From the IMG/VR virus record IMGVR_UViG_3300030329_005813, positions 108,362-172,361 of that record: 64,000 nt of DNA. One strand, written 5' to 3'. Below are positions 43,747-49,699 of the stretch, piece after piece (the stretch's first letter is position 1; each line of letters begins with the position of its first letter). Source of the DNA: a virus. The translations under genes were made by a program, and so were the position numbers. A model generated the notes under the pieces. It did not search any database. It saw only the letters and a program-made list of their open reading frames with translations, and was not told where the DNA came from.

Positions 43747-44208
43747 CTATTCTAATGCTACTTGTTTAATATATTTTTCGCGATCTAATACTCTTTTAGT
43801 AGTAGTGGCTGTATTGACTAAATTTGAACTACTGCGAACTTTATTTCCACCAACATTGTATACCATCTCTATTCCTAATTCTTTACAAATTTTAGATTCC
43901 GGAGTATTAGTAGAAACTCTATCTCCACCATTTGCAAAAATATCTGGTTTTAAAACTTTAAGTGATTCACAAACTGTCTTGTCGTCGTCTAAAGCCTCAA
44001 CAACATTGTCAACGCATTCGAACGCAGAAATAATTTCTGCTCGCTCTTCCCAGGTCATAAAAACATAACCTTTTTTTCTCTTAAGCCAATTATCAGAGTT
44101 AATAATAACTGTTAAACTACCTAATTTTGCTGCTTCTTGAAGCATTCTTAAGTGACCTACATGAATCGGGTCAAAGCCGCCTGATACAGCGACTGTCTTT
44201 TTACTCAT
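43747..44208 (-). CDS. HxGH cytidyltransferase (glycerol-3-phosphate CT / RfaE-II / FAD synthase-like)
   Basis: SGGFDPIHVGH, NSD.WL..KKG, ANGGDR, KVRSSS. Confidence 0.9.
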   Translation of the reverse strand: MSKKTVAVSGGFDPIHVGHLRMLQEAAKLGSLTVIINSDNWLKRKKGYVFMTWEERAEIISAFECVDNVVEALDDDKTVCESLKVLKPDIFANGGDRVSTNTPESKICKELGIEMVYNVGGNKVRSSSNLVNTATTTKRVLDREKYIKQVALE

Positions 44209-44392
44209 CTACAACCTCTAATTTTTGTATTAAACAATCTTGAATTCCTAATATTTTAGATTGTTCAATATTTCCATACATAATTTGAAATGTTGTGAAA
44301 CTAACTACTGTTGCAATTGTTGCTCCAAATATTGTTCCTAAGCAAAACATAACATTTTTTTTAACAAAACTATTAATTATTTTCATTTGCAA
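44201..44392 (-). CDS. Small membrane protein
   Basis: One hydrophobic helix; preceded by an ACTATTTA motif. Confidence 0.55.
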   Translation of the reverse strand: MQMKIINSFVKKNVMFCLGTIFGATIATVVSFTTFQIMYGNIEQSKILGIQDCLIQKLEVVDE

Positions 44393-44911: not shown

Positions 44912-45159
44912 GCTTTAAATAAAACTAAGTCTTTTAAAGCTTCTAAACAAATATATTTTTTTCCATTAATAATCCACTGAACATACACATAGCCTTCAAG
45001 CTTTAGTGGGCCGCCTGGAATTTTACAGTTATTTGGATTTCCAATTTTTGCTGGGTCTCTTGACCATATGAGACCATACGTATTTGTTTTTTGATTTTTA
45101 TATTTTACTCTTTGGCCTTGTTTAAAAGAGCTTTTCTTTTTTCTTTTTCTAATTGCCAA
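44908..45159 (-). CDS. Small basic hypothetical protein (SH3/KOW-like pattern)
   Basis: FKQGQRVKYK...YGLIW...YVYVQW. Confidence 0.55.
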   Translation of the reverse strand: MAIRKRKKKSSFKQGQRVKYKNQKTNTYGLIWSRDPAKIGNPNNCKIPGGPLKLEGYVYVQWIINGKKYICLEALKDLVLFKA

Positions 45160-45809
45160 TTTTTAAGTCTTATTATGTCGTTTTCAATAGTAACATATGA
45201 TTGATGTTCGACCCAATCACCCGTATTGACATAGGTTTTAATATCTTCATCTTTGTCAACCCAGATAAGCACTTCCGGAGTGTGGACATGACCCATTATA
45301 AATACATCGGCGTCTTTGTTCCACTCAATAATATCCCAAATTCTTTTTGCTTTTCTTAGACGTAAATTATGATACCACGTTGTTAAATCAATATTTTTCC
45401 ATCTTTCAATAAAATCTTGTACTATAGAAATAATGCTTATGATAAAACGATGGTGAATAATACCTTTTTCATATTTATCTCCGTGTTCTATTCTATATTT
45501 TCTTTTACCTTCAATAAATTCATATTTATCAACAAAGTGTACACCAAATACTTCTTTGTTAATTAAATTTTGAAAAGATTTATCGTGATTTCCTATGATG
45601 TAAATTACTTTGTTTTTAAAATTTTCTATTATTTTAAATAAAGCATAACTGTGATCTGTGAAAGATGGAATTTTTATAAAATCTATGATGTCACCAGCTA
45701 AAATTAATTCATCACAATCATCTGAAATTGAAAACAAAAATTCAATTAATGCTTCTTCATTAGCATACTTACTACCAATATGAAGATCTGATATAATAAC
45801 TCTTTTCAT
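45105..45809 (-). CDS. Calcineurin-like metallophosphoesterase (LpxH-like)
   Basis: ISDLHIG, LAGDIID, IGNHD, HGD, MGHVH, NTGDW. Start placed at 45809 because the upstream extension overlaps the tmRNA. Confidence 0.9.
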   Translation of the reverse strand: MKRVIISDLHIGSKYANEEALIEFLFSISDDCDELILAGDIIDFIKIPSFTDHSYALFKIIENFKNKVIYIIGNHDKSFQNLINKEVFGVHFVDKYEFIEGKRKYRIEHGDKYEKGIIHHRFIISIISIVQDFIERWKNIDLTTWYHNLRLRKAKRIWDIIEWNKDADVFIMGHVHTPEVLIWVDKDEDIKTYVNTGDWVEHQSYVTIENDIIRLKNWQLEKEKRKALLNKAKE

Positions 45810-45832
45810 ATTGTACTCTTTATGTAAATAGA

Positions 45833-46165
45833 TGGAGGTGGCGGGATTCGAACCCGCGTCCGCAATAATTTTCAATTCAAGTCATTCACAGGCTTGGATA
45901 GTTTTTACTCCACAAACTAACAAATGTAGGCCTTTTTATCCAACTATTTTTGGCCAATAATAGCTCGGGTGTTTTATTTTCAGCAGAACCATCTGCTTAT
46001 CTGGATTTGGGTAATAAGGTAACCAGAGACCCCACGATTAAGCCGCTAAGCGAACAGATTCGAAATGATTATTGTTATTGGCAATTATCAAGTTGTTTGA
46101 TTTTTAAGTCTCACGACTGCCTGCACTATCTTTTTCCATTACCCCGTCGAAACCAAAGCACCCCC
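45833..46165 (-). ncRNA. ssrA: tmRNA, tag peptide (A)ANNNNHFESVRLAA*
   Basis: 5' GGGGGTGCTTTGGTTTCGACGGGG and 3' GGACGCGGGTTCGAATCCCGCCACCTCCA give an Ala acceptor stem with G3:U70; tag frame at 46038-46082 ends LAA-stop. Confidence 0.95.
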
Positions 46166-46173
46166 TTAATATA

Positions 46174-46326
46174 TTATATTAAGTTGGTAATAATTGTGCT
46201 TACAACATTATTAAAATCAATTGTAAAAGTAACCCAATAAGTTACTATTAATGTTACCATTAACCCACTAAATATTCCATACTCTACAGCTGTGCTACCA
46301 ACATCATTTTTAAAAAATCTATTCAT
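46174..46326 (-). CDS. Flp/Fap (type IVb/Tad) pilin-like protein, 50 aa (absent from ORF track)
   Basis: MNRFFKNDVG^STAVEYGIFSGLMVTLIVTYWVTF...: prepilin G^xxxEY motif plus a hydrophobic helix; AGGGAG SD; ACTATTTA motif upstream. Confidence 0.75.
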   Translation of the reverse strand: MNRFFKNDVGSTAVEYGIFSGLMVTLIVTYWVTFTIDFNNVVSTIITNLI

Positions 46327-46377
46327 TTTTTTCTCCCTATACGCCCTTTCTTGAGATGAGCCAAATAAATAGTATTT

Positions 46378-46731
46378 CTAATTTTCAAAGTATGATATTG
46401 GTTTGTATTTTTTCTTTAATTTCTGGAAATAATCCGGTCTCAGTCCCAAAAGTCTCATAGCTTCCACTTGAGTTCTGGTAGCTGAGTAAGCATACTTAAA
46501 CATAGCATCTTTTACTATGTTTGTCAAGTTATGCCATATAGGAAATCCATAAAGTCTATTATTAACTGGCTTACTGGCTAACTCCATTTTAAGACCAATT
46601 ATTTCTTCAAGAGTTAAATTACTGAGCATTATTTCAAAGTCAATATTTATTTTTTTCTCTTGACGTAGCTTCTTAGATAGACTATAATAGGTATTACGTC
46701 CTTTCCTTAATTTCTTTCTTTTCCAAGACAT
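46378..46731 (-). CDS. Basic hypothetical protein, possible C-terminal HTH
   Basis: TRTQVEAMRLLGLRPDYFQKLKKKY resembles a Fis-type HTH; appears to be leaderless. Confidence 0.65.
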   Translation of the reverse strand: MSWKRKKLRKGRNTYYSLSKKLRQEKKINIDFEIMLSNLTLEEIIGLKMELASKPVNNRLYGFPIWHNLTNIVKDAMFKYAYSATRTQVEAMRLLGLRPDYFQKLKKKYKPISYFEN

Positions 46732-46737
46732 ATATAT

Positions 46738-46766
46738 ATTATAATATATTATATACTATATGTCAA
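46738..46766 (-). promoter_or_regulatory. Consensus sigma70 promoter giving a leaderless transcript
   Basis: TTGACA-N17-TATAAT ending 6 nt before the ATG at 46731. Confidence 0.75.
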
Positions 46767-47547
46767 GTATTTCAAATAATTCATCCTCACCAGAAGGTTG
46801 ATCTATTTTTTCTTTTTCATACTCAGGTGTTGTTGGTTCAGGTAAATTTGTTGTTAACACATCTTCAAATCTATCTCTCCAAAGAAGAACATTTGTTTTT
46901 AAATAATCGTGATATAACTCTCTATCTTCATCATTAGCTAATTCACCAAAATCATCTACAATAGTACCTTGAATTTGCTTAAATGTTCCAAGTGCGACAT
47001 TACGACCAGTTTCATCGTGTTCTTTGTCACCTATGCCTCTTGTCAAAAGCTCTTCATCATCATCAATTTCTATTTCTTCTTCCGGCTCTTCTTCTTCGCC
47101 ACCTAGGCCCAAATCACCAATATCAATAAATTTATCTTCCGTGCCAATATTAATATCTACTTCCTCTTCCAGTTCTACCTCATCAGCAGCCTCTGGGGCG
47201 TCAATATTAGTCTCGATAGGCGCCAATAGATTGTCAATACCATTTATTAAATGTGCCATATAAGATTTTCTTTGAGCTGGATCAGTTGTTAGGCTCAAAT
47301 AATCATCTTTGATTTGAGGGATAACTTTCTTAAGAGTTTTACGAAGAATGTTAATACCAGTTTTCTCGTGTGGGGCCTCGTCACCAACAGCAGTTTTTTC
47401 TAACAATAATGCTTTTTGAATAACTTTTCTTAATGTTTGTTCTTCCAGATATTGTTGCTTTTTATTATTAGATCTAACTTTTTTTATAATTTGACGAATA
47501 ACTTTTCTTAATACTTGCTCTTCGATTAATTCTTTTCTATCAACCAT
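46756..47547 (-). CDS. Acidic hypothetical protein, possible head-internal/scaffold-like
   Basis: Duplicated EEQxLRKVI N-terminal motif, Glu-rich tracts, ACTATTTA motif upstream. Confidence 0.7.
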   Translation of the reverse strand: MVDRKELIEEQVLRKVIRQIIKKVRSNNKKQQYLEEQTLRKVIQKALLLEKTAVGDEAPHEKTGINILRKTLKKVIPQIKDDYLSLTTDPAQRKSYMAHLINGIDNLLAPIETNIDAPEAADEVELEEEVDINIGTEDKFIDIGDLGLGGEEEEPEEEIEIDDDEELLTRGIGDKEHDETGRNVALGTFKQIQGTIVDDFGELANDEDRELYHDYLKTNVLLWRDRFEDVLTTNLPEPTTPEYEKEKIDQPSGEDELFEILDI

Positions 47548-49699
47548 AGTGTAGCCCCTTATACTGTAATAAATAGTTTAAAACACGTTCAACGACTACA
47601 TCTTTTTCATCTTCCTCTTCGGTAGGTTCTTCTTCGCGAATAAGGGTTGATTTTTTATTTTTCCCAGCGCCACCTTCAACAGCACCGCCACCTGCTCCTC
47701 CCGCAGCCGAAATTTCTTCTACAGTACCATCTTGTAAGCCATCCATTTCCATATATGGCTTTTCTTTTTTCTTTTCGTTCAAAACTTCATACACCAATTC
47801 TGTGATAGCGCTTTCAAGACCACCAGCGGGTTCGGCAGATTCAGGCTGAACTCCCAAAATAGATAAAATGTCAGCAGGATCTGTATTATCTGGTATAAAT
47901 TTTTCTAGTCCCTGGCCCGTATCTAAAGCAGCACGAAAAGCAGAAGCGCTTAAAGGAGCCTCATCCGGCGCACTATAATACCAATCCATAATATTAGCTG
48001 GTATTACTCCATCTAACATTCCTTCTACTCCACGATGAAACTTAATAAATCTATTATAGTCTGGCTGCCCTCTGCTGTCAGGCTTGTTGCTAGCTGCTGG
48101 TATGACTAAATCTCCTGGCTGGGGTATATAGTCTGGGACTGTTCCTTTTAAGACTTCATATGAATTTTGCACAGGACTATTCCACGGCGCTGCCAAAATT
48201 AATACTTTATCGGATATACCAGCATCTTGTAAGTAGGTATTCCAAATTTGTTCTGAGACTCCACGATCAACAGGTCGCCCAGCTGGCGTTTTCCTGTCGA
48301 GTGGAGAAATAAAAATATAAACCATATCTGCGCCTTTCTCCAATAGAGATAAGACAACATTTAAATGACCTTTATGGGGAGGCTTAAATGCACCAGGAAA
48401 AACAGCTATTTTTCTTTTAACGTCTTGAACGTTGGCTTCTTCTTCATCTAGTTTTTGCAAAGGAGGTACGCTTCCGCGGCCATACTTAAAAAGACCAAGA
48501 AGTTGATTCATTGGCGCAAAGTTTCCAGTAAACTTATAGGTGACTCCATCATAATCAAAAACAAAACCTTCGGCTGCTGTTGAAACGCCTTCAACATCTT
48601 TTAGTTTGCTCATCTGTTTGGTTAGGATTTCCATCGCTTCTTCAGAACCGCTCTCTTCGATGGCTTTAATGGCCCTAGAAGTCTCTTGTCGAAGTCTTTC
48701 GACTTCGGATACGTTATCTAGAATGAATGCGCTCTCAAGCCCTCTAAGCATCTCTACGGAGAAGTCGTGTACAATCTCTTCAACTGGTGCAATAGCATCC
48801 TTAAGTAGAGCACTAGAATTTTTAACTAAATCACGTACTATAGCAATTGATTCTGCGTCTTCTTTTGGAATTAAACCAAGAACTTTTCTAATATTTCCGC
48901 CCTCTTCTTTAAAAATACGTTTTAAAAGTTCCATATTAGCTTCATCAGATAAAGAAATGCGCTGATCAATAGCTTTTTCAACGCGTGAAATCATATATTC
49001 TCCAACAGTTTGGTTGTCAGAGATGCCAGCTTGACTTAAAACACTTTCTAAACGTGCTATAGCTAAGTTAACAGCAGTATCATCACTTAAAGCTTCAAGA
49101 CGCCGAATAGCATTCATTTGAACGTAAAATCTTCCTTCTTCACGTTCTCCTTGAACTCTTTCTAGCGCGGCAGCTAATTTTTTAGCATTTTTTGAAACAT
49201 CGCGACCGGTTGGTCGACCGGTTTCTCTATCATATTCATTATGGCCAACTCTATGAATAGTTAAAGTAGGTAAATCATAATTAATAAGATTTGCTGCACG
49301 AGGATCTTGAACTTCGGCATTATAATAAACATTTGTGTCTGGTCCGAATATTTCTTCACGCTCTTCAATGGACATTTTGCCAACAGCTTCTTCAAAAGCA
49401 GCAAATGCTTCATTAAAAGCTGTTTCTAGTGCGCCACGTCCACCAAACTTTTCTGCCAGTCCAGCAGCGTCTAAACCTCCATCCTTAATATTTCCTTTAT
49501 TTCTAGCTGCTCTAGCCGAACTAGTTCTAATATTATAGGATAATTGAAGATTTTGACCATCTGTTTTTTCAGTACCTTTTAACTCGCCCCCTGAAGCAGC
49601 TTGAAAAACTTGTTTCATTTCGCGAAAAGTTAAATTTGGATTATCATACAGATGATTCATGTGGCCAGCGACGCCACCCTCTGAAAGAAATCGGCCCAT
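47540..49699 (-). CDS. Fusion protein: ligase-type nucleotidyltransferase-like domain plus HxGH cytidylyl/adenylyltransferase domain
   Basis: EKTDGQN (motif I KxDG), NAE, AEGFVF (motif IV), YKFTG (motif V); then FPGAFKPPHKGH and LSASAFR. Confidence 0.65.
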   Translation of the reverse strand: MGRFLSEGGVAGHMNHLYDNPNLTFREMKQVFQAASGGELKGTEKTDGQNLQLSYNIRTSSARAARNKGNIKDGGLDAAGLAEKFGGRGALETAFNEAFAAFEEAVGKMSIEEREEIFGPDTNVYYNAEVQDPRAANLINYDLPTLTIHRVGHNEYDRETGRPTGRDVSKNAKKLAAALERVQGEREEGRFYVQMNAIRRLEALSDDTAVNLAIARLESVLSQAGISDNQTVGEYMISRVEKAIDQRISLSDEANMELLKRIFKEEGGNIRKVLGLIPKEDAESIAIVRDLVKNSSALLKDAIAPVEEIVHDFSVEMLRGLESAFILDNVSEVERLRQETSRAIKAIEESGSEEAMEILTKQMSKLKDVEGVSTAAEGFVFDYDGVTYKFTGNFAPMNQLLGLFKYGRGSVPPLQKLDEEEANVQDVKRKIAVFPGAFKPPHKGHLNVVLSLLEKGADMVYIFISPLDRKTPAGRPVDRGVSEQIWNTYLQDAGISDKVLILAAPWNSPVQNSYEVLKGTVPDYIPQPGDLVIPAASNKPDSRGQPDYNRFIKFHRGVEGMLDGVIPANIMDWYYSAPDEAPLSASAFRAALDTGQGLEKFIPDNTDPADILSILGVQPESAEPAGGLESAITELVYEVLNEKKKEKPYMEMDGLQDGTVEEISAAGGAGGGAVEGGAGKNKKSTLIREEEPTEEEDEKDVVVERVLNYLLQYKGLHYG

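What the first reader, a model, noticed from the sequence alone, without database searches (positions are those of the whole stretch)
46174..46373. Hidden phage-encoded Flp/Tad pilin-like gene next to the tmRNA
Seen: a 50-aa ORF below the ORF-track cutoff, MNRFFKNDVG^STAVEYGIFSGLMVTLIV..., with its own SD and ACTATTTA motif. Known: Flp prepilins have a short leader ending in Gly, the +5/+6 EY motif and a hydrophobic helix, and Tad pili are phage receptors. No other tad genes are visible in the window. Inference: a decoy or dominant-negative pilin that alters the host pilus (superinfection exclusion, or changed attachment or predation), and a hint at the receptor and host.
Basis: partly seen in the sequence, partly recalled or inferred. 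Interest (0 to 1): 0.75.

Follow-up and report, generated by a model that had tools for sequence, protein, structure and literature searches.

The report
Phage-borne Flp (Tad) pilin gene
An uncultured marine T4-like phage carries a complete, fast-evolving copy of the tiny subunit gene of bacterial Tad (Flp) adhesive pili but none of the machinery to build a pilus, so it most likely slips its own subunit into the host's pilus, a trick so far shown only for other pilus types.

Summary
A 50-codon ORF (46174-46326, minus strand) has a GGGAG ribosome site and its own ACTATTTA element, and ends 8 nt before the phage tmRNA. It is a genuine Flp-family prepilin. Pfam Flp_Fap matches end to end at E=2e-5, which is below the curated cutoff, but syntenic orthologues pass it. 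Every flp-motif residue is present (G-1, T2, E5, Y6, G7). A profile aligns its predicted mature end with residue 1 of solved Caulobacter Tad pilins.

The ~212-bp cassette is an exact indel between a conserved 117-aa gene and the tmRNA. It is present in 4 of 50 related phage records in three diverged forms. Two of those records, and one without an Flp match, also carry TadE-like minor pilins. No phage record has a prepilin peptidase.

Contigs from four independent studies keep the ORF intact. It holds 9 of 24 listed differences across 2.6 kb. The leader and motif change only synonymously; the mature part changes by replacement.

Best reading: a host-processed phage pilin that remodels the host Tad pilus, probably to exclude other phages. 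Function, expression and host are untested. The published precedent covers type IVa and archaeal pilins only.

The scan also holds a first-reader note on phage TadE/TadG pilins in another genome.

The parts
46174..46326 (-). Flp-family prepilin gene, 50 codons plus stop
   Evidence: ORF. Pfam PF04964 E=2e-5 over profile 1-44/46. 90%-identical alleles P0001/P0002. Intact in contigs of four studies.
46297..46326 (-). Predicted 10-residue leader peptide (M1-G10), cut after G10
   Evidence: A profile of the phage Flp group aligns residue 1 of the mature Caulobacter Tad pilins (8u1k, 8u2b) with S11. G10 is invariant in 16 sequences. Only synonymous changes occur here in natural variants.
46177..46296 (-). 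Predicted mature pilin, 40 residues: flp motif (T2, E5, Y6, G7), hydrophobic helix, polar C-terminal half
   Evidence: Motif residues are invariant and match those described for the Tad pilus core (PMC10710030). The 40-aa length is typical of 110 cellular Flp ORFs, median 41.5. All five replacements in the natural variant fall here.
46333..46337 (-). Shine-Dalgarno GGGAG, 6 nt before the ATG
   Evidence: Read from the sequence. An SD sits at the same place in the L056 and L154 cassettes.
46366..46373 (-). ACTATTTA promoter-type element belonging to the cassette
   Evidence: Enriched and strand-specific. It precedes the tail tube, head-tail adaptor and baseplate wedge genes. It is kept upstream of the diverged Flp genes of L056 (exact) and L154 (ACTACTTA).
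46166..46377 (-). Whole Flp cassette (promoter element, SD, ORF), an indel relative to Flp-less relatives
   Evidence: DNA alignment: in L002 and L016 the tmRNA 5' end directly abuts the stop codon of the 117-aa gene, while the window and L056 carry the insert.
45833..46165 (-). Phage tmRNA immediately downstream, probably co-transcribed
   Evidence: ARAGORN and Rfam RF00023 at 114 bits. The Flp stop lies 7-9 nt from the tmRNA 5' end in all three phage lineages. No terminator-like site lies between them.
46378..46731 (-). Conserved 117-aa gene of unknown function, the upstream border of the cassette
   Evidence: Homologues at 59-79% identity in L056, L154 and L002. No Pfam or PHROG match.
46738..46766 (-). 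Perfect sigma-70 consensus promoter (TTGACA-17-TATAAT), a possible early route of transcription into the 117-aa gene, the Flp gene and the tmRNA
   Evidence: 12 of 12 match. It is one of six perfect sites in the genome, all on the coding strand, and is not conserved in relatives. Function is inferred only.

Best explanation
This is a genuine, functional Flp-type (type IVc/Tad) major-prepilin gene carried as an accessory cassette by a virulent T4-like marine phage. Proposed mechanism follows. (1) The gene is transcribed from its own late-type ACTATTTA element, and probably also by read-through from a sigma-70 promoter upstream of the 117-aa gene, on the same transcript as the tmRNA precursor. 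This step is inferred from motifs. (2) The 50-aa prepilin inserts into the inner membrane through its hydrophobic helix. Inferred. (3) The host's TadV/CpaA-type prepilin peptidase cuts after G10, because the phage has no peptidase of its own. Inferred from homology. (4) The 40-aa mature pilin joins the membrane pilin pool, and the host Tad motor and platform polymerise it, so it dilutes or replaces the host pilin. In sister phages a TadE-like minor pilin would do the same at the priming or tip end. Inferred. (5) The pay-off is a pilus with a phage-specified surface that rival or sibling pilus-dependent phages can no longer use. That would be superinfection exclusion by replacement of a surface component. 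This last step is speculative and rests on analogy with P-FimU.
For: Family: Pfam Flp_Fap E=2e-5 over the full profile length. The natural allele P0001 scores 28.9 bits. The syntenic L154 orthologue scores 36.1 bits and the relative P0007 34.7 bits, both above the 32.2-bit cutoff. P0007 is 38% identical over the full length at E=2e-4 in a library of 1.8 billion proteins. A profile of the group hits the solved Caulobacter Tad pilins 8u1k and 8u2b at E about 1e-5, with their mature residue 1 aligned to S11.

Assembly competence: the only invariant residues in 16 sequences are M1, F4, G10, T12, E15 and Y16, with G17 nearly invariant. These are G-1, T2, E5, Y6 and G7 of the flp motif, which packs the Tad filament core (PMC10710030). 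The 40-aa mature length is typical of cellular Flp.

Selection: contigs from four studies keep the ORF intact. Nine of 24 listed differences over 2601 bp lie in the 153-bp ORF (binomial P=5e-6). Codons 1-22 change only synonymously, and five replacements fall in the mature part. pN/pS is about 0.5, against 0.04 or less in the neighbours.

Phage context: the cassette has its own promoter element and SD, and this 5' layout is shared by three diverged versions. Flp occurs in 4 of 50 related records, and a TadE-like minor pilin above the Pfam cutoff in 3 of 50; two records carry both. No peptidase, ATPase or platform gene is present, so any activity must use host machinery. The phage has a gp23 capsid and no integrase.

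Precedent: phage FimU proteins are built into the type IVa pilus and block tip-binding phages, and PilA-like genes occur in virulent phages (PMC12952977). Virus SNJ2 pilins hijack the host machinery (PMC12426801).
Against: The window copy is below Pfam's gathering cutoff. There are no expression data of any kind. The host is unknown, so it is not shown that the host has a Tad system. T4-like phages usually adsorb to LPS or outer-membrane proteins, so nothing says this phage or its rivals use Tad pili. The ACTATTTA element marks virion (late) genes, and late expression fits classic early superinfection exclusion poorly. The early sigma-70 route is only a motif match and is not conserved in relatives. 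Nine relatives that are at least 90% complete lack the gene, so it is dispensable. The raised divergence includes synonymous sites (pS about 0.10, against 0.03-0.04 in neighbours), so part of it may reflect a recombined patch rather than selection.
Confidence: 0.45

Rival explanations
1. Dominant-negative jammer. The phage prepilin engages the host prepilin peptidase or assembly platform but cannot be polymerised productively. The cell loses its Tad pili, and exclusion comes from de-piliation rather than from replacement.
For: It is an orphan pilin with no machinery. The leader is only 10 residues and the L056-type mature part only 35 residues, shorter than nearly all cellular Flp ORFs sampled. 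The window's mature helix lacks the small-residue pattern typical of cellular Flp tails. Small hydrophobic phage proteins that shut down type IV pili are known, for example Pf PfsE (PMC8764522, listed).
Against: Every residue described as important for core packing is conserved. The window's mature length is typical. Sister phages also carry a TadE-like minor pilin, which a pure blocker would not need.
Confidence: 0.15
2. Pro-pilus accessory gene. The phage supplies pilin, and in sister phages a minor pilin, to keep or increase functional Tad pili during infection. This could hold the infected cell on particles or prey, or serve another virus, as the SNJ2 pilins do.
For: The pilin is full-length and looks assembly-competent. 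There is a major-plus-minor pilin kit in L154 and in G002. [quoted passage not shown] The phage occurs in estuarine and coastal runs, where particle attachment matters.
Against: The gene is sporadic, present in 4 of 50 records and in none of nine near-complete relatives. It also changes amino acids quickly in the mature part. Both patterns fit conflict genes better than a host-function booster. No benefit of attachment to a lytic phage is shown.
Confidence: 0.18
3. Co-opted membrane peptide. A former Flp gene now acts as a small single-pass membrane protein unrelated to pili, for example in lysis timing or membrane perturbation late in infection.
For: It carries the late-type promoter element shared with virion genes. 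It is a small protein with a single hydrophobic helix. T4-type phages make several small late membrane proteins for lysis control (my own knowledge).
Against: Across 22-44% overall identity, the invariant residues are exactly the peptidase-site and flp-motif residues. A pilus-independent role would not preserve these. TadE-like genes co-occur in relatives.
Confidence: 0.07
4. Neutral passenger. A captured host gene fragment rides next to the tmRNA recombination hot spot and has no current function.
For: Accessory distribution. AT-rich mosaic region. pN/pS is higher than in neighbours.
Against: The ORF is intact in four studies and in three lineages that have diverged to 22-44% identity. The promoter element, SD and motif residues are all conserved, with no stops or frameshifts. 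No near-identical cellular donor was found.
Confidence: 0.08

Closest known systems
Prophage FimU (P-FimU) and phage PilA-like proteins of Pseudomonas and Xylella phages (Sztanko et al. 2026, PMC12952977)
   Same: A phage encodes a homologue of a host pilus subunit without the machinery. The P-FimU proteins are highly diverse. PilA-like genes were also seen in virulent phages. The proposed logic is that replacing a surface component blocks pilus-dependent phages.
   Different: Those are type IVa pilins with globular domains, and for P-FimU incorporation and defence were shown by experiment. The paper never mentions Flp or Tad. Here the protein is a 40-residue type IVc (Tad) major pilin in an uncultured marine T4-like phage, and nothing has been tested.
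PilA1 and PilA2 of the haloarchaeal provirus SNJ2 (Xiang et al. 2025, PMC12426801)
   Same: Virus-encoded type IV pilins use the host secretion and assembly machinery. Tad pili are structurally closest to archaeal type IV pili (PMC10710030).
   Different: SNJ2 is a temperate archaeal virus. Its pili serve as the receptor for another virus and promote biofilm formation, which is the opposite outcome to exclusion. There is no sequence relationship to the gene here.
Cellular Flp/Fap major pilins of Tad pili, such as Caulobacter crescentus PilA (PDB 8u1k, 8u2b)
   Same: Pfam family, flp motif (G-1, T2, E5, Y6, G7), single-helix architecture, and a mature length of about 40-45 residues.
   Different: Cellular flp genes sit in or near tad or cpa loci that include a prepilin peptidase. 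This one is an orphan in a phage, has a 10-residue leader, is at most about 30-48% identical to any cellular Flp found, and is wedged against a tmRNA gene.
Small phage inhibitors of type IV pili, such as Pf phage PfsE (PMC8764522)
   Same: Small hydrophobic phage-encoded proteins that change pilus function and give superinfection exclusion.
   Different: Those are not pilin homologues. They bind motor or platform proteins of type IVa pili.

Membership tests
Flp/Fap pilin family (Pfam PF04964; type IVc/Tad major pilins) | Match to the family HMM at or above the curated cutoff (32.2 bits) | tested here: inconclusive
   The window protein scores 24.7 bits at E=2e-5 over the full profile length, below the cutoff. 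The natural allele P0001 scores 28.9 bits. The syntenic orthologue in L154 scores 36.1 bits and the relative P0007 34.7 bits, both above it.
Flp/Fap pilin family (Pfam PF04964; type IVc/Tad major pilins) | Prepilin-peptidase site and flp motif: G at -1, T2, E5, Y6, G7, with hydrophobic residues at 3, 4, 8 and 9 | tested here: met
   The window protein reads G10|S-T-A-V-E-Y-G-I-F. G10, T12, E15 and Y16 are invariant and G17 nearly so in 16 sequences. The roles of the motif residues are described in PMC10710030.
Flp/Fap pilin family (Pfam PF04964; type IVc/Tad major pilins) | Very small mature pilin: one hydrophobic helix with a polar C-terminal half and no globular domain | tested here: met
   The mature part is 40 residues, compared with a median of 41.5 in 110 cellular Flp ORFs. 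The profile aligns to the solved Tad pilins from their residue 1.
Flp/Fap pilin family (Pfam PF04964; type IVc/Tad major pilins) | Encoded in or near a tad/cpa locus (prepilin peptidase, TadA ATPase, TadB/C platform, secretin, TadE/F) | tested here: not met
   There is no PF01478, PF00437, PF00482 or PF07811 match in the 172-kb, 95%-complete genome. Related phages have a TadE-like gene only. The gene is a homologue by sequence but not part of a Tad system of its own.
Flp/Fap pilin family (Pfam PF04964; type IVc/Tad major pilins) | Cleaved by a TadV/CpaA peptidase and polymerised into a pilus | not testable with these tools
   This needs expression in a Tad-piliated host.
Phage-encoded pilus-subunit replacement (P-FimU type defence) | The phage encodes a homologue of a host pilus structural subunit without assembly machinery | tested here: met
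Phage-encoded pilus-subunit replacement (P-FimU type defence) | High diversity of the phage-borne subunit relative to neighbouring genes | tested here: met
   Flp identity is 22-44% between lineages, against 59-79% for the adjacent 117-aa protein. There is a nine-fold local excess of differences between near-identical strains.
Phage-encoded pilus-subunit replacement (P-FimU type defence) | Incorporation into the host pilus and a block of adsorption by pilus-dependent phages | not testable with these tools
   No host, no experiment, and no RNA data.

The most novel reading that the evidence does not exclude
A subclade of virulent marine T4-like phages carries a mobile 'pilin kit': an Flp major pilin fused transcriptionally to the tmRNA gene, plus a TadE-like minor pilin in some members. 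The kit rebuilds the host's Tad pilus with phage-specified subunits during lytic infection. Its rapid sequence turnover records a phage-versus-phage arms race over Tad pili as receptors in the sea. This would be the first Tad-pilus case of defence by subunit replacement, and it would point to Tad pili as a significant marine phage receptor.
Probability: 0.3. Interest if true: 0.75.

Novelty: new variant of a known kind. Interest (0 to 1): 0.6.

Why it matters
Tad pili are widespread adhesion and surface-sensing organelles and are known phage receptors in Caulobacter. How phages manipulate them is essentially unexplored. Phage-encoded pilins were shown to act as receptor-masking defences only in 2025-2026, and only for type IVa and archaeal pili. 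A Flp gene, with TadE-like genes in sister phages, in abundant and geographically widespread marine and estuarine T4-like phages would extend that principle to the third pilus class and to virulent ocean phages. It also gives a 40-residue protein that is easy to test in model Tad hosts. It offers a functional handle on host range and phage competition for a phage clade that has no cultured member.

Tried and rejected
The genomic context of the P0007-P0009 group is therefore unknown.
- PHROGs and NCBIfam gave no match for the ORF.
- Single-protein scans of viral contigs found nothing.
- tblastn of the window Flp, the L154 Flp and the L154 TadE-like protein against 50,697 deposited phage records gave no credible hit. 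The low-complexity filter may hide short hydrophobic matches.
- HMMER hits P0003, P0004 and P0005 are Thr/Ser-rich repeat proteins without an EY motif, so they are spurious.
- The single-sequence PDB hit to a MATE transporter (7dqk, E=0.056) was rejected as generic transmembrane-helix similarity.
- No RNA holder was listed among the sequencing runs, so nothing can be said about expression.
- Two joints in laid contigs (46155>46439 in X3, 46169>46440 in X9) might be Flp-less relatives in the same samples. The skipped sequence is marked 'not known', so they were not used as evidence.
- Host inference was attempted and left open. No fetched cellular locus shares the phage neighbours. Capsid relatives are below 50% identity.
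- Structure prediction, fold search and complex prediction were not run. A single 40-residue helix gives uninformative fold matches, and no host partner sequence is known.
- Literature searches for phage-encoded Flp or TadE found nothing in the held library. That is not proof of absence.

Full report
**Observation**

The window is the last 64 kb of a 172,361-bp IMG/VR virus record that CheckV rates 95% complete. On the minus strand, 46174..46326 holds a 50-codon ORF starting at ATG. GGGAG lies 6 nt upstream of the ATG, and ACTATTTA lies at 46366-46373. The ORF's stop codon is 8 nt from the 5' end of a one-piece tmRNA at 45833-46165, which both ARAGORN and Rfam RF00023 (114 bits) identify.

**Is it an Flp pilin?**

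Pfam Flp_Fap (PF04964) matches residues 4-47 to profile positions 1-44 of 46, at E=2e-5 and 24.7 bits. That is below the 32.2-bit gathering score. PHROGs and NCBIfam give no match.

Independent lines close the gap:
- An exhaustive HMMER scan of 1.84 billion representatives returned P0001 (90% identical) and P0007. P0007 is a 52-aa protein, 38% identical over the full length, which JGI names 'Flp pilus assembly pilin'. It passes the Pfam cutoff at 34.7 bits. The large multi-stretch hits in that scan are Thr/Ser-rich repeat artefacts.
- A profile of 16 phage and metagenome relatives hits the two solved Caulobacter Tad pilins (8u1k, 8u2b) at E about 1e-5. Residue 1 of their mature chains aligns to S11 of the window protein. 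This places cleavage after G10.
- The invariant columns of that alignment are M1, F4, G10, T12, E15 and Y16, with G17 nearly invariant. [quoted passage not shown]
- The predicted mature pilin is 40 residues long. That is ordinary for 110 cellular Flp ORFs fetched here, which have a median of 41.5 and a mode of 40.

So this is a complete Flp-type prepilin, not a fragment.

**Context and conservation**

The phage has a T4-type gp23 capsid (E=2e-61) and no tyrosine integrase. Its nearest cultured capsid relatives are Flavobacterium phage immuto, Microcystis phage Mel-JY01 and Rhodothermus phage RM378, all below 50% identity. The genome holds no prepilin peptidase, secretion ATPase, platform protein or TadE.

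Fifty-four related loci were found through the neighbouring 719-aa gene. The local gene order is the 719-aa gene, a 263-aa gene, a 117-aa gene, then the tmRNA. In L002 and L016 the tmRNA 5' end abuts the stop codon of the 117-aa gene. The window and the L056-type phages carry a cassette of roughly 212 bp inserted exactly there.

Three diverged cassette versions exist:
- the window type;
- the L056 type, a 45-aa protein found in three viral records and nine further protein clusters, one of them from a Pacific Ocean virome;
- the L154 type, a 52-aa protein that scores 36.1 bits with Pfam, above the cutoff.

All three share the same 5' layout: ACTATTTA or ACTACTTA, about 30 nt, an SD, then ATG. 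All three end 7-9 nt before the tmRNA. This points to one ancestral phage cassette rather than three separate captures.

Across full records, Flp occurs in 4 of 50 relatives, and in none of the nine that are at least 90% complete. It is an accessory gene.

Three of the 50 related records also carry a TadE-like minor pilin that scores above the Pfam cutoff (42.7-46.2 bits). The three genes sit at three different genome positions. Two of these records also have Flp. None of the five records tested has a prepilin peptidase. No deposited phage genome among 50,697 shows either gene.

**Evolution**

Flp identity between lineages is 22-44%. The adjacent 117-aa protein is 59-79% identical and the 263-aa protein 46-69%. 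For both Flp and tmRNA the window is closest to L154, but for the upstream genes it is closest to L056. The Flp-tmRNA pair therefore seems to move as a mosaic module.

The phage is present in 20 DNA runs from 10 studies of marine, estuarine and seawater samples. Contigs from four independent studies were laid on 45000-47600. They carry a strain about 1% diverged, with the ORF intact. Nine of its 24 listed differences lie in the 153-bp ORF (5.9%, against 0-1% in the neighbouring genes; binomial P=5e-6). Codons 1-22 show only synonymous changes (N7, S11, G21). Five replacements fall in the mature part (M23I, V24A, T25S, Y30C, S43D), and together they reproduce allele P0001. pN/pS is about 0.5, against 0.04 or less in the neighbours.

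This pattern fits a coding gene whose processing and core-packing motif is under purifying selection while its helix and surface part turn over quickly. Synonymous divergence is also somewhat raised, so a recombined patch may contribute.

**Expression signals (inference only)**

ACTATTTA occurs 34 times in the genome, 33 of them on the coding strand and mostly 15-35 nt before an SD and start codon. It precedes the tail tube, head-tail adaptor and baseplate wedge genes. It therefore behaves like this phage's late, virion-gene promoter element, and the Flp cassette carries its own copy.

A perfect sigma-70 consensus promoter ends 7 nt before the ATG of the 117-aa gene. It is one of six perfect sites in the genome, all on the coding strand. 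No terminator-like site precedes the tmRNA. Early read-through is therefore possible in this strain. No RNA run was available.

**Mechanism**

The phage supplies only subunits, and selection preserves precisely the peptidase site and the filament-core motif. The product should therefore be cut by the host's TadV/CpaA-type peptidase and enter the host Tad assembly pathway.

Three features resemble the phage FimU system. These are the full-length, typical architecture, the co-occurring TadE-like minor pilins in sister phages, and the conflict-gene signature of sporadic distribution with fast replacement in the exposed part. In the FimU system, phage subunits are built into the pilus and block tip-binding phages, and PilA-like genes were noted in virulent phages (PMC12952977).

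I therefore favour subunit replacement that changes the pilus as a receptor (0.45). The rivals are pure jamming (0.15), a pro-pilus role as in SNJ2 (0.18; PMC12426801), a pilus-unrelated membrane role (0.07) and a neutral passenger (0.08).

**Host**

The host is unresolved. The nearest cellular Flp genes in a capped, motif-biased scan were about 90% alphaproteobacterial, at about 30-48% identity. None shares the phage neighbours. The tmRNA is the standard one-piece type.

**Novelty**

Phage-encoded pilins are known for type IVa and archaeal pili. I found no description of phage-borne Flp or TadE genes in the held literature. The scan itself holds one first-reader note of TadE/TadG-like pilins in another phage genome. 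I class this as a new variant of a known kind.

Noticed in passing
L154:5088-5504 (+); L157:1216-1659 (-); L162:1477-1860 (+): Three related phages carry TadE-like minor-pilin genes of 127-147 aa, all above the Pfam PF07811 cutoff and all with acidic C-terminal tails. They sit at three different genome positions: between tRNA genes, after a dUTPase-like gene, and among structural-looking genes. The window's own genome has none.
   Followed up: partly
window 46738-46766 (-): A perfect sigma-70 consensus promoter (TTGACA-17-TATAAT) ends 7 nt before the ATG of the 117-aa gene, and no Shine-Dalgarno lies between them, which suggests a leaderless early mRNA. The genome has six perfect-consensus sites, all on the coding strand. 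This one is not conserved in L154, L002 or L016.
   Followed up: partly
window 45833-46326 versus L056, L154 and L002: The tmRNA and the Flp gene both link the window most closely to L154 (tmRNA 86% identity). The upstream 117-aa and 263-aa genes link it to L056 (79% and 69%). The Flp-tmRNA unit therefore looks like a recombining module.
   Followed up: partly
loci L002-L058: A tmRNA gene lies a few kb downstream of the 719-aa gene in many members of this phage clade. The tag peptides vary (endings ...SVRLAA...YALAA...LAQAA), and a variable tRNA cluster usually follows.
   Followed up: no
window 44201-44392 (-); L154:5645-5815; L002:12188-12367: A conserved small single-pass membrane protein of 56-63 aa, with a shared IQDCLI-like C-terminal motif, lies just upstream of the cytidylyltransferase gene in all three phages. 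It has no family match.
   Followed up: no
window 45105-45809 (-): The calcineurin-like metallophosphoesterase gene directly after the tmRNA is the most AT-rich stretch nearby (GC as low as 0.23). It has no counterpart at that position in L002 or L154, so it is another variable insert beside the tmRNA.
   Followed up: no
P0006 (metagenome protein, 136 aa): Two nearly identical Flp units are joined in one predicted protein. This is either a tandem flp pair read through or a genuine fusion.
   Followed up: no
L155:1816-1998 (+): A high-GC viral contig taken from an isolate genome (IMGVR_UViG_2821042281_000001) carries a typical 60-aa Flp gene near its end. This may be a prophage-borne pilin or host flank.
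   Followed up: no
window 46155-46440 (table 5): Single contigs in two runs join the tmRNA 5' region to the inside of the 117-aa gene, skipping 270-283 bases. This is compatible with co-occurring Flp-less relatives, but the intervening letters are not known.
   Followed up: no
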